DNA of 64,000 bases from Octopus vulgaris (GCA_951406725.2 OX597830.1:10788001-10852000); one strand, 5' to 3'; shown: positions 3,111-61,630, counted from the stretch's first letter. Translations and numbers: made by a program. Notes: a model not told the origin generated them from the sequence alone.

Positions 3111-3303
3111 GTGTGTACCGTTTTTTTTCCTCCGTCTTCCCTTCTCTGGATCCCTCCTTTTCCTATGTTTCTGACGAAGTGCTCCACTCGAAACGTAAAA
3201 CCCTCCTTCTTCCCTTGCTTCCCTAAGCATCCAATAATACTATATTTGTTCCACGTCCTCGCGCTGTTGTGTATTCTCTTTGTGTTTTCATGTTTGGATT
3301 AAC
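3111..3303 (+). mobile_element. Short HHR-bearing Penelope-pLTR-like element (family P2)
   Basis: Homologous to 60860-61055; contains an HHR; ends GGATTAAC directly into (TA)n. Confidence 0.65.
3167..3201 (+). ncRNA. Minimal type I hammerhead ribozyme (stem II mismatch)
   Basis: GTTT-CTGACGA-A-GTG-CTCCA-CTC-GAAAC-GT-A-AAAC: stem I GTTT/AAAC, palindromic stem III ACGT. Confidence 0.65.
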
Positions 3304-3882
3304 TATATATATATATATATATATATATATATATATATATATATATGTATATGTATGTATATATATATATATATATATATATGTATATATATATGTATGT
3401 ATATATATATATATATATATATATATATATAAAGAGAGAGACACATGCATACACTGTGTGTGTGTGTGTGTGTGTGTGTGTGTGTGTGTGTGTGTGTAAG
3501 ATGATGAGACCAATGACCATTTCAAAAAGCATTGATTACTTCACAGAAGATGTTTCAACTATTCTCTCTCTGACACTGCCACTCCATTTCGGAACTCCAC
3601 ATCTTCAAAACGACTGGCTCTGACAGAGGTCTTCCCCTTCCTCTCAGATGACGACGGTGAAGTTAATACAAAGTTAAATGGTTGATTAGAAAGAGACGGA
3701 CATCTTCAAATACAAGAAAACTTTGCACTGGGCATTTTTAAAAAATTCTTACAGAAATCTAATATGCGTGTGTGTGTGTGTGTCAATGTGTTAGTGTGTC
3801 TGTCTGTCTGTGTATATACAGGCATACATATATGTGCATGTATACGTGCACACACACATATTCATACATACATATATATATA

Positions 3883-4301
3883 CTCTTTTACTCTTTTACT
3901 CTTTTACTTGTTTCAGTCATTTTAACTGCGGCCATGCTGGAGCACCGCCTTTAGTCGAGCAAATCGACCCCGGGACTTATTCTTTGTAAGCCCAGTACTT
4001 ATTCTATCGGTCTCTTTTGCCGAACCGCTAAGTGACGGGGACGTAAACACACCAGCATCGGTTGTCAAGCAATGCTAGGGGGACAAACACAGCAGACACA
4101 CAAATACACACATACATATATATATATATACATATATACGACAGGCTTCTTTCAGTTTCCGTCTACCAAATCCACTCACAAGGCATTGGTTGGCCTGGGG
4201 CTATAGCAGAAGACACTTGCCCAAGATGCCACGCAGTGGGAGTGAACCCGGGACCATGTGGTTGGTTAGCAAGCTACTTACCACACAGCCACTCCTACGC
4301 C
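3883..4301 (-). mobile_element. SINE family A (dominant tRNA/CORE-like SINE with internal microsatellite)
   Basis: Head GGCGTAGGAGTGGCTGTGTGGTAAG, CORE-like ATCTTGGGCAAGTGTCTT, (GTAAAAGA)n tail. Confidence 0.9.
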
Positions 4302-4384
4302 TATATATATATAAATTTTTTTTTTCCCCGTAATGAGATAAAAAACCAAGGCTGTGTAGATTTTAGAACATTTATAAATAGAAG

Positions 4385-4432
4385 GTCTTACAGCTGTTTC
4401 TAGGATATCCATTATATCCCTTCATCAGAGAC
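4385..4432 (-). ncRNA. Type I hammerhead ribozyme
   Basis: RC: GTCT-CTGATGA-A-GGGATAT-aatgg-ATATCCT-A-GAAAC-AGCT-GT-A-AGAC. Confidence 0.75.
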
Positions 4433-4502
4433 GGTGTAAGAAGATATTTAAGCAATAGTTATCTTATCTAAATTAACTATTGCTTAACCATCTTCTCACA
4501 CC

Positions 4503-4554
4503 GTCTCTGATGAAGGGATATAATTAATTAATATCCTAGAAACAGCTGTAAGAC
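4503..4554 (+). ncRNA. Type I hammerhead ribozyme
   Basis: GTCT-CTGATGA-A-GGGATAT-aattaatta-ATATCCT-A-GAAAC-AGCT-GT-A-AGAC; stem III palindrome ACAGCTGT. Confidence 0.75.
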
Positions 4555-4916
4555 CTTCTATCTATAAATGTTCTAAAATCTACACAGCCTTGGTTTCTTA
4601 TCTCATTACAGAAAAAATTTTTTATATATACGCATGCTGATATAAGACCTATGTTGGCCCCTTATTTGCATAATCACCGAACCTGGAACTCAACTATGGT
4701 CTATCCATAGAACTTATTCAGCATTACCTGACCCCTTTGGGTCTCAATAACACCATTACCTCTCATAACCTTATATATATATATATATATACATATATAT
4801 ATATATATATACATACACAGTTACACTTCAGCTCATGCTAGCATGTAACATGGATACTAAATGGTGATGAGGCTGATGATATACAAATATATATATGTAT
4901 ATATAAGTACATATAT

Positions 4917-5290
4917 TTTTACTTGTTTCAGTCATTTGACTGTGGCCATGCTGGAGCACCACCTTTAGTGAAGGACATCTATCCCAGGACATATTCTTTG
5001 TAAGCCTAGTACTTATTCTATTGGTCTCTTTTGCTGAACTGCTAAGTTACAGGGACATAAACACACCAGCACTGGTTGTCAAGCTATGGTGAGAGACAAG
5101 CACAGACACAAACATATATATATATATAAATATATATACACAAAATGGGCTTCTTTCAGTTTCTGTCTACCAAATCTACTCACAAGAGTGTGGTCAGCCT
5201 AAGGTTATAGTAGGAGACACCTGTTCAAGGTGCCACACAGTGGGACTGAACCAGGAACCATGTGGTTTGGAAGCAAGCTTCTTACCACAC
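4917..5290 (-). mobile_element. SINE family A (diverged)
   Basis: Same blocks as 3883-4301. Confidence 0.85.
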
Positions 5291-5379
5291 ATTATTTGTG
5301 TAAAGCCAGAAAGATGTGAGAAGATTTAAAGTAAACCATAGAAAGAAAAGACAAAACAAAGTCGTAGTTTTGATTCATG

Positions 5380-5417
5380 TATCCATATTTTGGGGCTATG
5401 ACCCCTTCTTCAGGACA
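5380..5417 (-). ncRNA. Decayed hammerhead motif
   Basis: RC: TGTC-CTGAAGA-A-GGGG-tcatag-CCCC-AAAA-TAT-G-GATA; GAAA mutated to AAAA and G at the cleavage position. Confidence 0.4.
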
Positions 5418-58918: not shown

Positions 58919-59520
58919 TGCACTCTATGATTCAAGCATTTTATTTTTGCAACAAAATTCCCACCACGTCTAAATAAAGTGTTCCCCTCATACCATTCCC
59001 TTTCACATTTGCTGCCCTTGTCACTTTATAACACCCCTCATATCACCATCACCACCCCTCATATCACCATCACCACCCCTCATATCACCATCACCACCCA
59101 GATTCGTGTTATCATCTAATTAAGAACCACCGTGCCAGATTAACTAGTGTCAAGTATATTCTCATTGATAAAAGGGGCCACAGGTTGTTATGCATCAATT
59201 AACTACAATCACAAGGGATCGGAAAAGGTGACAGATTAAGGGGTTGTTATTTATTTGTTTATTTGTTTATTTTATCTTATTTTTCTTCTTTTATTTGTGT
59301 CAGTGCTGGAGCAACGCCTTAAAGAATTGTATGTAGTTGAATGAATAGACTCTAGAACTTATATATTTTTTTTAAAGCCTGGTATTTATTTTATCAGTCC
59401 CCTTAGCCAAACCACTAAGTTATAGGGATATAAGTGTATCAGCAATGGTTGCCAAACAGTGGTGAGAAAGAAACAAAGTCACACACACACACACACACTA
59501 TGTATATATGTATGTATATA

Positions 59521-59727
59521 TACAAGAGCTTGCTGAAAATTCCTGGCTTTAAGGTGTTTGTGAAAGGCAAGGGTTGGAGGCCTAAAGTTCCGAGTTCGTT
59601 TACAGGGCTTAGAAAAACTGAAGGACCGCCTGCAATAGGCATGTGAATCTGAGAGGGAACCATAATTATCTGATACTCCTGTATTTCTTTTAACACAAAA
59701 CCAAAACCCTTTCGGCCCCCCCTTGTA
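59521..59727. mobile_element. Mariner-like MITE or deletion derivative
   Basis: TA-CAAGAGCTTGCTGAAAATTCCTGGCTTT ... AAAACCCTTTCGGCCCCCCCTTG-TA. Confidence 0.55.
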
Positions 59728-59756
59728 TATACATATATATATATATATATATATAT

Positions 59757-60316
59757 CGGTGACACGTAAAAGCACCATCTGTTTGTGGCCGTTTGCCAGC
59801 CCTGTCTGGCCCCCATGTCGGTGACATGCAAAAGCACCATCCGTTTGTGTCCGTTTGCCAGCCCTGTCTGGCCCCCATGTCGGTGACATGTAAAAGCACC
59901 ATTCGTTCGTGTCCGTTGCCAGCCTCGCCTGGCCCCCGTGCCGGTGACACGTAAAAGCACCATCCGTTCGTGGCCATTTGCCAGCCCTGTCTGGCCCCCG
60001 TGTCAGCGGCATGTAAAAGCACCATCCGTTCGTGCCCGTTGCCAGCCTCGCCTAGCCCCCGTGCCGGTGACACGTAAAAGCACCATCCGTTTCGTGGCCG
60101 TTTGCCAGCCCTGTCTGGCCCCCGTGTCGGTGGCATGTAAAAGCACCATCCGTTCGTGTCCGTTGCCAGCCTCGCCTGGCCCCGTGCCGGTGACACGTAA
60201 AAGCACCATCCGTTCATGGCCGTTTGCCAGCTCTGTCTGGCACCTGTGCAGGTGGCACGTAAAAAGCACCCACTACACTCACGGAGTGGTTGGCGTTAGG
60301 AAGGGCATCCAGCCAT
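59757..60316 (+). repeat. GC-rich 59-62-bp minisatellite amplified inside SINE family E
   Basis: Eight units of CGGTGACACGTAAAAGCACCATCCGTTCGTG..CGTTTGCCAGCC..TGGCCCCCGTG, followed by the SINE E core. Confidence 0.9.
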
Positions 60317-60529
60317 AGAATAGGCATGTGAATCTGAGAGGGAACCATAATTATCTGATCCTCCTATATTGCTTTTTACACAAAACCAAAACCCTTTTCG
60401 TACCTTGTATGTATGTGTATATATATATATATATATCTACATATATATATATACATATATACATATATACATATATATACCTATATATATATACATATAT
60501 ATGTGTAAAGGTAAAATTTGTATACATAC

Positions 60530-60808
60530 AGATGCCAGCGCTGCCTGACTGGCGTCCGTGTCGGTGACACGTAAAAGCACCATCCGACCATGGCCGTTTG
60601 CCAGCCTCGTCTGGCCCCTGTGCCGGTGGCAAGTAAAAAGCACCCACTACACTCACGGAGTGGTTAGCATGAGGAAGAGCATCCAGCTGTAGAAACACTG
60701 CCAGATCAGACTGGAGCCTGGTGCAGCCTCCTGGTTTCCCAGACCCCGGTCGAACTGTCCAACCCATGCTAACATGGAAAACGAACATTAAACGATGATG
60801 ATGATGAT
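60530..60808 (+). mobile_element. SINE family E
   Basis: Core and (GAT)n tail. Confidence 0.8.
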
Positions 60809-60921
60809 ACATATATGTGTATATATATGTGCAAAGGTAGAATTTGTATGTGATCGCATATGTACCGTTGGCAATTTTTTTTTCCTCTGTCTTCCCTTCT
60901 TTGGATCTTTCCTTCTCCTAT

Positions 60922-60956
60922 GTTTCTGATGAAGAGCTCCACTCGAAACGTTAAAC
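60922..60956 (+). ncRNA. Minimal type I hammerhead ribozyme (family P2)
   Basis: GTTT-CTGATGA-A-GAG-CTCCA-CTC-GAAAC-GT-T-AAAC. Confidence 0.7.
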
Positions 60957-61312
60957 CCTCCTTCTTTCCTTCTTTCCTGAGCGTCCAATAATACTATATT
61001 TGTTTCCATGTCCTCGTGTTGTGTTTTCTCTTTGTGTTTTCATGTTTGGATTAACTATATATATATATACATATAATTATATGGATACATACATACATAC
61101 AATATATATATATATATATATATTATATATATATATATACATACATGCATATATATATATATATATATATATATATATATATACATACATGCATATATAT
61201 ATATATATATATATGATGTACTGATCCATGATAGAAAATTCAACAAAAAAAAGTACTCCATCTGGTGAGAGATGAATATTATTTATTTAAAGGACACAAT
61301 GCATGTCTTTAA

Positions 61313-61365
61313 GTGCTACTAATAGTTTCATATGTTGAGAGAACTCAAACATGTTCTTCAGGTGC
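61313..61365 (-). ncRNA. Type I hammerhead in an old fold-back element
   Basis: RC: GCAC-CTGAAGA-ACATG...CATAT-GAAAC-TATTA-GT-A-GCAC (stem I probably a CpG-decayed GCGC/GCGC); the inverted arm at about 61400-61492 lacks the CTGA core. Confidence 0.6.
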
Positions 61366-61630
61366 AAACCACATATCATAACGAAGTAAAGAAAATGACT
61401 TTAGTTCGTTATGATATGTGGCTTCTGTTTGAGTTTTCTCAACTTATGAAACGATTAGTAGTGCTTTAATACATGTACTGTGACATTTAAACATATATAT
61501 ATAGATAGATACATAGATAGATAGATAGATATATAATAATAATAATTTGAGAATATTATTCCAAACATACAGGGAAAAATTCAATTTAGAAATACTAAAT
61601 CAAATTTCACAAAATATAATATATATATCT

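What the first reader, a model, noticed from the sequence alone, without database searches (positions are those of the whole stretch)
3111..61492. High hammerhead density: about 17 motifs from at least 7 families, nearly all at (TA)n
Seen: HHR or HHR-like motifs at 3167, 4385, 4503, 5380, 5990, 6524, 7640, 8175, 8555, 8972, 21836, 22233, 26308, 36736, 36958, 60922 and 61313. Stems differ between families but keep pairing, and stem III is typically a short palindrome (ACGT, ACAGCTGT, ACAATTGT). Almost every carrier abuts a (TA)n tract. Inference: a large, diverse radiation of non-autonomous, TA-targeting Penelope-type ribozyme elements that standard annotation would miss. Copies within an intron could cut host pre-mRNA.
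Basis: partly seen in the sequence, partly recalled or inferred. Interest (0 to 1): 0.8.

Follow-up and report, generated by a model that had tools for sequence, protein, structure and literature searches.

The report
Penelope retrotransposon hammerheads in TA repeats
The 17 hammerhead-ribozyme motifs are real and sit in short repeats of nine families, mostly cut-off tail ends of Penelope-type jumping genes that end in TA repeats, a known kind of element that is very common in this genome; one still-spreading family has a normally fixed core letter changed, and self-cutting is predicted but untested.

Summary
Observation confirmed. All 17 motifs exist; 11 pass a hammerhead descriptor (shuffles under 0.1) and six are decayed or variant copies of hammerhead families. 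They are 12 insertions from 9 families; 10 of 12 end directly in (TA)n. The window is not special in kind: 60 unselected 10-kb stretches give 48 motifs/Mb (25-78), about 130,000 genome-wide. 'Non-autonomous' is mostly wrong. Families A, D, E (and probably F, I) are truncated or inverted 3' ends of protein-coding Penelope-like elements (PLEs); intact Hydra-clade and Neptune-type copies were found. Only family C (534-bp tandem unit) is a true non-coding retrozyme, and it carries the PLE insertion footprint. No host gene was found, so intron cutting is unsupported. Minimal hammerheads in PLE ends, TA targeting, inversions, tails and an octopus Hydra element are all in print. Two things were not found in print: family E has an A6U core in 41 of 42 copies, also in both ends of young intact elements; and family C arrays end at two fixed sites, one per arm. 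Earlier notes of this scan reported both on other DNA. Cleavage is untested.

The parts
3108..3303 (+). Family A, 5'-truncated 3' end of a PLE with CCHH-type GIY-YIG; minimal HHR at 3167-3201 (stem II mismatch); ends in (TA)n
   Evidence: (copy L251 runs into a GIY-YIG fragment)
4314..4771 (.). Family B, two-armed inverted insertion; HHRs at 4428- and 4507+; short end +75, long end +221 after the cleavage site, both in (TA)n; parent ORF not found
5292..5580 (-). Family G, old decayed copy (core at 5413-, G12 changed) with remnant of an inverted arm; 3' end abuts a SINE-like repeat, not TA
5706..8407 (.). Family C, non-coding 534-bp tandem retrozyme, two head-to-head arms (2.4 units minus, about 2 units plus); HHRs at 6062-, 6597-, 7644+, 8179+; ends at +290 and about +165, both in (TA)n
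7046..7431 (+). Later insertion into the plus arm of family C, same unit position on both sides; Helitron-like ends (label recalled)
8445..8828 (+). Family H, decayed copy, long stem II HHR (core 8558+); starts at the TA tract that ends family C, ends in (TA)n; parent ORF not established
8868..9110 (-). Family I, HHR core 9026- with Hydra-style stem III; shares the 8829-8867 TA tract with family H; one relative (L040) lies inverted beside a Hydra-type RT fragment
21687..22352 (.). Family D, two-armed inverted 3' fragment of a Hydra-clade PLE; HHRs 21920- (end +155) and 22239+ (end +35), both in (TA)n
26262..26431 (+). Family E (older subfamily), truncated 3' end of a Neptune-type PLE; A6U core plus a G8 change in this copy; ends in (TA)n
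36660..36826 (+). Family F, decayed copy (core 36740+); ends in mixed GT/TA tract
36880..37092 (+). Family E, truncated 3' end of a Neptune-type PLE, A6U core at 36962+; 86-90% identical to the pLTRs of young intact copies; ends in (TA)n
60856..61055 (+). Family A, second copy; minimal HHR core 60926+; ends in (TA)n
61215..61492 (.). Family F, two-armed inverted insertion; HHR core 61361- and a decayed second arm; relatives lie beside Hydra-type ORF fragments

Best explanation
The motifs are minimal type I hammerheads in the terminal repeats (pLTRs) of at least two clades of Penelope-like retrotransposons and in one non-coding retrozyme that likely borrows a PLE enzyme; they pile up because reverse transcription likely starts 35-290 nt downstream of the hammerhead, so even the shortest truncated insertion copies one. 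Shown: the motifs, their families, the fixed 3' ends in (TA)n, the ORF-bearing parents of D (Hydra clade) and E (Neptune type), the two fixed ends with one on each arm of inverted insertions, and scattered 5' ends. Inferred (from published PLE biochemistry): the GIY-YIG domain nicks both strands in a TA tract; each DNA end primes reverse transcription at one of two fixed internal sites of a read-through, multimeric or circular RNA; the cDNAs run through the uncut (or re-ligated) hammerhead, stop at random and are joined head to head. Each event leaves TA on both sides, which would seed nested insertions such as the C-H-I pile at 5.7-9.1 kb. The hammerheads are predicted to cut only as dimers or with protein help, and cutting is probably not needed for the insertion step.
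For: Descriptor vs shuffles. TA directly after the family end: A 29 of 33, E 26 of 27 and 26 of 27 anchors, background 6%; unselected hits 14 of 23 within 300 nt of (TA)5 vs 21%. Family D: intact pLTR-ORF-pLTR in 5 of 8 fetched long-ORF loci, 957-aa ORF with RWK, DKT, CxCX5C, CxxC, CxH, the Hydra signature of Craig et al.. Family E: open frames of 1032-1200 aa in 12 of 12 fetched loci, both pLTRs in 9 of 12, 98.3-99.7% identical over 2.9 kb, with DKG, CX4CxxC linker and CCHH GIY-YIG. Two ends: D +35 and +148 to +157 in 5 of 5 long two-armed loci; the segment between them is the element's 5' leader (ATG at +209); C +288-292 and +160-187 in 13 of 13 complete two-armed insertions. 0 of 32 family C 5' ends lie within 35 nt of the cleavage site. 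Published: two internal RT starts explain the tail, both strands are cut and extended, HHR mutants still insert (PMC11167929).
Against: No ORF parent found for B, G, H, and no sequence-related autonomous partner for C. F and I are linked to ORFs only by proximity in 3 of 11 and 1 locus. 5' ends of A and E copies cluster 75-115 nt upstream of the core, unexplained by random truncation, though the search favoured copies spanning the query. Tails here are 115-146 nt, longer than the 30-40 nt described. One copy of another family (55203-55451) starts at its cleavage site. Clades were assigned by motifs, no tree. No expression or cleavage data.
Confidence: 0.85

Rival explanations
1. One reading: most families are independent non-autonomous, SINE-like ribozyme elements.
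For: Family C is non-coding (longest ORF 54 aa); most copies of all families are 150-400 bp; 5' ends of A and E cluster; B, G, H have no ORF link.
Against: A, D, E run into RT or GIY-YIG ORFs; D and E have intact autonomous relatives; F and I lie beside Hydra-type fragments.
Confidence: 0.1
2. Family C arrays arise by local tandem amplification (unequal crossover) of a single inserted pLTR, as proposed for vertebrate retrozymes in bioRxiv 10.64898/2026.07.22.740005.
For: The preprint's model; arrays of up to 12.7 units; small variants are shared within arrays (identities).
Against: Arrays at dozens of loci are 98-99% identical to each other; both arms of one insertion can be multimeric; both outer ends are in register with two fixed sites and the inner junction is a random inversion, which fits copying of a multimeric or circular template at insertion.
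Confidence: 0.12
3. The hammerhead fold is kept in these elements mainly for a non-catalytic job (pairing two RNAs through the palindromic stem III, or binding the PLE protein), and family E's A6U core is catalytically dead.
For: A6U in 41 of 42 family E copies with N7 free (T20, C12, A7, G3) and other core positions kept; U6 in both pLTRs of young intact elements; sister family A has A6 in 38 of 38; changes at position 6 lower activity (A6C below 0.1 per min); HHR mutants still insert in vitro; 27 of 29 unselected hits have a palindromic stem III.
Against: G5, G8, G12 and the H17 rule are kept, as expected if chemistry still matters; natural A6C variants remain weakly active; Naiad PLEs make inverted insertions without canonical HHRs; stem conservation is partly built into the search anchor.
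Confidence: 0.3
4. Intronic copies cut host pre-mRNA and affect gene expression.
For: About 130,000 motifs genome-wide make sense-strand intronic copies certain; tandem C arrays could form active dimers; retrozymes are under-represented in Xenopus introns.
Against: No host gene detected in or near the window; single minimal HHRs showed no cleavage and 8 of 9 tested Xenopus dimers did not cut; both strands carry motifs.
Confidence: 0.07

Closest known systems
Minimal hammerheads (min-HHR) in pLTRs of metazoan PLEs (Cervera and De la Pena 2014, PMC4209133)
   Same: Type I core, extra nucleotide after A9, empty or palindromic stem III, many sequence families per genome, mostly single or inverted truncated copies, few full elements.
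   Different: Density about 48/Mb here against 4,000-9,000 motifs per genome reported for coelacanth and Xenopus (different descriptors, so only roughly comparable); long loop II in several families; A6U family not seen in the supplement pages searched.
Hydra-clade PLEs, including Hydra-1_Obim of Octopus bimaculoides (Craig et al. 2021, PMC8557442)
   Same: RWK, DKT, CxCX5C, CxxC and CxH motifs, C-terminal GIY-YIG, HHR with palindromic stem III, (TA)n target (family D; likely F, I).
   Different: Unit about 4.65 kb with a 957-aa, Asn-rich ORF against generally under 3 kb; tail 115-120 nt; different HHR sequence from Hydra-1_Obim.
Neptune (or Nematis) clade PLEs
   Same: DKG, CX2-5CxxC linker, CCHH GIY-YIG, ACGU minimal HHR, microsatellite target (family E; likely A).
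   Different: Family-wide A6U in the hammerhead core of recently active intact elements.
Metazoan non-LTR retrozymes (Cervera and de la Pena 2020, PMC7229834; Li, Clavereau and Pollet 2026, bioRxiv 10.64898/2026.07.22.740005)
   Same: Non-coding tandem unit with one type I HHR per unit, low GC (33%), strongly self-paired as a circle (-148 vs -107 +/- 6 kcal/mol); PLEs proposed as mobiliser.
   Different: 534-nt unit (above the 170-400 nt of the 2020 paper, within the 51-972 bp of the preprint); head-to-head arms with two fixed ends in (TA)n, a footprint not found by term search of the 2020 paper ('inverted' 0) nor in the preprint parts read; circular RNA not shown.
Poseidon PLE of Anolis carolinensis, PAc (Frangieh et al. 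2024, PMC11167929)
   Same: Two internal RT start sites downstream of the HHR define the tail; AT-rich target; uncut RNA as template.
   Different: Start sites are adjacent (30-40 nt tail) in PAc and 115-146 nt apart here; here each arm of an inverted insertion uses a different one.

Membership tests
Type I minimal hammerhead | Core CUGANGA / GAAA / UH with paired stems I and II | tested here: met
   11 of 17 window motifs; family relatives of F and H pass the descriptor, G relatives show the core in alignment
Type I minimal hammerhead | Empty or palindromic stem III | tested here: met
   11 of 11 window hits; 27 of 29 unselected hits
Type I minimal hammerhead | A at core position 6 (family E) | tested here: not met
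   U in 41 of 42, C in 1; U in 51 of 51 motif instances in ORF-linked loci, some loci overlapping
Type I minimal hammerhead | Self-cleavage after H17 | not testable with these tools
   No assay; only contigs of runs guessed to be RNA were laid
Hydra-clade PLE (family D) | RWK, DKT, CxCX5C linker, CxxC and CxH, C-terminal GIY-YIG without CCHH | tested here: met
   Positions 37, 124, 818, 915, 945 of the L202 ORF
Hydra-clade PLE (family D) | pLTRs with HHR flanking one ORF, (TA)n target | tested here: met
   5 of 8 long-ORF loci have both pLTRs; window copy 98-99% identical to a sister subfamily with broken ORFs, 82-85% to the intact one
Hydra-clade PLE (family D) | Placement in the Hydra clade on an RT tree | not tested
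   No reference set aligned
Neptune-clade PLE (family E) | DKG, CX2-5CxxC linker, CCHH GIY-YIG at the C terminus, RT | tested here: met
   L305 ORF motifs; RVT_1 E 1.4e-7
Neptune-clade PLE (family E) | Separation from Nematis on a tree | not tested
   Both clades share the linker; 'Neptune type' rests on recalled motif detail
Non-LTR retrozyme (family C) | Non-coding tandem units, one type I HHR each, dispersed loci | tested here: met
   259 matches from 40 scored of 966 candidates; longest ORF 54 aa
Non-LTR retrozyme (family C) | Accumulates as a circular RNA | not testable with these tools
   No holder on record as RNA; contigs cannot show circles
Non-autonomous element (families A, D, E) | No coding parent; defined non-coding full length | tested here: not met
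   ORF-bearing copies
Rfam Hammerhead models | Score above gathering threshold | tested here: not met
   0 matches in the window; none among the 150 best of 425 E-value matches shown

The most novel reading that the evidence does not exclude
A currently spreading autonomous Neptune-type PLE keeps a perfectly paired hammerhead whose core is catalytically dead (A6U), so in these elements the fold works as an RNA pairing or protein-binding module rather than as an enzyme; together with retrozyme arrays written at insertion from both ends of a cut TA tract, this octopus-like genome (about 100,000 hammerheads) is a natural test set for what PLE hammerheads are for.
Probability: 0.25. Interest if true: 0.7.

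Novelty: new member of a known kind. Interest (0 to 1): 0.38.

Why it matters
The headline (many minimal hammerheads on TA-targeting Penelope elements) is known biology, including in octopus. It still matters in two ways. What PLE hammerheads do is open: the only in vitro system inserts without cleavage. Family E gives a natural, family-wide core change in elements that moved very recently, beside a sister-type family (A) with a normal core, so one cleavage assay pair addresses the question. Family C links retrozymes to PLE enzymes by insertion footprint rather than by sequence trees, and argues that the tandem arrays are made at insertion. The density estimate suggests cephalopods are among the most ribozyme-rich genomes, which makes a genome-wide intron strand-bias test well powered.

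Tried and rejected
Rfam: 0 matches at gathering threshold; the E-value list shown was microsatellite noise. RNA evidence: no RNA holder listed on record; contigs of four runs guessed to be RNA cover parts of families B and C and the SINE-like repeats but cannot show strand, ends, circles or level; not used as evidence. Host gene: Pfam on 150 of 245 longer window ORFs (only a DDE_3 fragment), 82 shorter non-repeat ORFs (none) and 75 of 335 neighbouring ORFs (PIF1, RVT_1, one weak 7TM hit below cut-off); short exons would be missed. Autonomous partner of family C: tblastn of the Hydra and Neptune ORFs against C loci gave only hits outside the arrays. Cleavage-defined 5' ends: rejected for C (0 of 32). 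Idea that the ORF-bearing arm always takes the long end: rejected, intact D relatives L202 and L205 end at +37 on the ORF arm. Minimum-energy folding recovers the hammerhead shape for only some single motifs and does not test dimers well; not used. Homologue search for the D protein gave 42 mostly unnamed relatives at 29-44% identity and one 70% partial match named from Octopus sinensis. A larger background sample could not be fetched, so the density rests on 600 kb.
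Full report
Setting. The window is G000:C17:10788001-10852000 of a 2.8-Gb animal genome in 227 contigs, microsatellite-rich and about half repeats. An octopus is inferred from size, contig pattern and the one named homologue; this is not established by a call.

Observation. All 17 places hold a hammerhead-like motif. A type I descriptor written here (exact core, stems I and II at least 3 bp, palindromic or paired stem III, optional single-nucleotide insertions, loop II up to about 80 nt) finds 11 of them and nothing else; shuffled windows give 0.025 (40 shuffles) and 0.08 (100 shuffles). 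The six misses are decayed or variant members of hammerhead families: G, H, F and E. The 17 motifs are 12 insertions of 9 families; 10 of 12 end directly in (TA)n. At family level TA follows the fixed 3' end in 29 of 33 (A), 26 of 27 and 26 of 27 (E) anchors against a 6% background.

Is the window special? Sixty 10-kb stretches taken at round coordinates on 30 contigs hold 29 descriptor hits (21 insertions, 17 stretches, 20 stem signatures; shuffles 0-2), 48 per Mb with a bootstrap range of 25-78, or roughly 130,000 (70,000-220,000) in the genome, not counting decayed copies, the A6U family or a U3-A8 family. Two of the 29 look like chance hits and seven come from one array. The window has 11 against 3.1 expected; counted as insertions 6 against 2.2 (P 0.027), and the 120 kb around it had none. 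So this is a local pile-up of a genome-wide phenomenon. In 5.7-9.1 kb families C, H and I sit end to end on shared TA tracts, which suggests nested targeting (inference).

What the families are. D: copies at 98-99% identity continue into RT and GIY-YIG fragments; its endonuclease finds 18,517 candidates and open frames up to 984 aa; 5 of 8 fetched long-ORF loci have hammerhead-bearing pLTRs on both sides. The ORF has the RWK, DKT, CxCX5C, CxxC and CxH motifs that define the Hydra clade. The window's subfamily showed only broken ORFs in the loci fetched; the intact subfamily is 82-85% identical in the pLTR. E: one long copy ends in a GIY-YIG C terminus, which finds 5,324 candidates; 12 of 12 fetched long-frame loci have open frames of 1032-1200 aa, 9 with both pLTRs, 98.3-99.7% identical over 2.9 kb, with DKG, a CX4CxxC linker and CCHH: a Neptune-type element that moved recently. 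A (3,140 candidates): one of 30 loci, extended, runs into a CCHH-type GIY-YIG fragment. F and I lie beside Hydra-type fragments (3 of 11 loci in sense; 1 locus inverted). B (4,174 candidates), G and H have no established parent. C is a 534-bp unit without an ORF, in arrays at dozens of loci at 98-99% identity.

Footprint. Inverted, two-armed insertions occur in B, C, D, F and G. The arms end at two fixed distances after the cleavage site: D +35 and +148 to +157 in 5 of 5 long loci, B +75 and +221 in the window, C +288-292 and +160-187 in 13 of 13 complete two-armed insertions (12 of 17 arrays that I picked for length, plus the window; 4 were one-armed, 1 interrupted). In D the stretch between the two ends is the element's own 5' leader, so the template reads through the pLTR. 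C arms reach 12.7 units and 0 of 32 inner ends lie within 35 nt of the cleavage site, so the cDNA passes the hammerhead uncut or re-ligated. This matches the in vitro behaviour of the anole Poseidon protein: both strands cut and extended, two internal start sites, cleavage not needed (PMC11167929, parts 1-2 of 4 read). The priming model itself is inferred.

The A6U family. With core positions 3-9 left free in the search, family E has U6 in 41 of 42 copies, N7 free, and C3, U4, G5, G8, A9 kept in at least 40 of 42 (stems were part of the anchor). U6 is in both pLTRs of the intact young elements and in subfamilies up to about 25% apart. Family A has A6 in 38 of 38. A natural A6C variant cleaves slowly and prefers Mn2+ (PMC3088659 and PMC7151607, passages). 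I found no A6U natural variant; figures (such as the variant list in Fig. 5 of PMC3088659), subscription papers, file 1 of the PMC4209133 supplement and the preprint's supplements were not visible and may bear on this.

Comparison with print. PMC4209133 (parts 1-2 of 4; supplement file 2 passages and part 2 of 3) describes exactly such minimal hammerheads: thousands per genome, many families, mostly truncated or inverted copies, no cleavage as monomers. PMC8557442 (passages, section 11, supplement rows) gives TA targeting, inversions, tails, and Hydra-1_Obim from Octopus bimaculoides with a hammerhead and (TA)n preference. PMC7229834 (passages) defines non-LTR retrozymes and names PLEs as candidate mobilisers; bioRxiv 10.64898/2026.07.22.740005 (parts 1-3 of 5) argues the same from trees in 35 species without a mollusc, and favours local tandem amplification. 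PMC13282606 (passages) lists 31 recently active PLE families in Octopus vulgaris and does not contain the word 'ribozyme'. PMC6155905 (passages) added nothing specific. Searches showed no paper on hammerhead density or retrozymes in cephalopods among the listings returned.

Intron idea. No host exon was detected, which does not exclude a long intron. Motifs are on both strands. Unsupported here.

Earlier scan notes, read after I had seen both features in my own calls (35, 56), report two-armed retrozymes and the A6U family on other DNA of this and related genomes; they are not independent evidence.

Verdict. Interest 0.38, carried by the A6U family and the retrozyme footprint.

Noticed in passing
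   Followed up: partly
   Followed up: no
window 26113-26250: Tail and short hairpin of a family related to D, truncated before its hammerhead; relatives in L113 and L145.
   Followed up: partly
window 61520-61848: Another inverted repeat with tail between TA tracts, 14 matches in 600 kb of background; no hammerhead seen in the window part.
   Followed up: no
window 7046-7431 and 20860-21661: Helitron-like non-coding element (label recalled) inserted into the family C array, with tandem relatives at 20.9-21.7 kb.
   Followed up: partly
window 41191-41541 (+): DDE_3 transposase fragment (Tc1/mariner type), E 7.5e-14.
   Followed up: no
L111 2090-4740: A second young tandem retrozyme (359-bp unit, 6-bp stem I, 4-bp stem II), two head-to-head arms between TA tracts.
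   Followed up: partly
L153, L167, L168: Hammerhead family with the U3-A8 core pair, tandem and inverted in L167; this covariation is in print for Schistosoma.
   Followed up: partly
L001-L030 and L221-L250: 5' ends of family A and E copies cluster 75-115 nt upstream of the hammerhead core, just downstream of long low-complexity 3' UTRs; unexplained.
   Followed up: partly
L092-L110: Family B mostly has C at core position 4 and an unpaired pair of nucleotides closing stem II.
   Followed up: no
L087 1-1860 (+): Long intronless ORF resembling an RNA-binding KH-domain protein of the fragile X family (label recalled), possibly a retrocopy, beside two PLE insertions.
   Followed up: no
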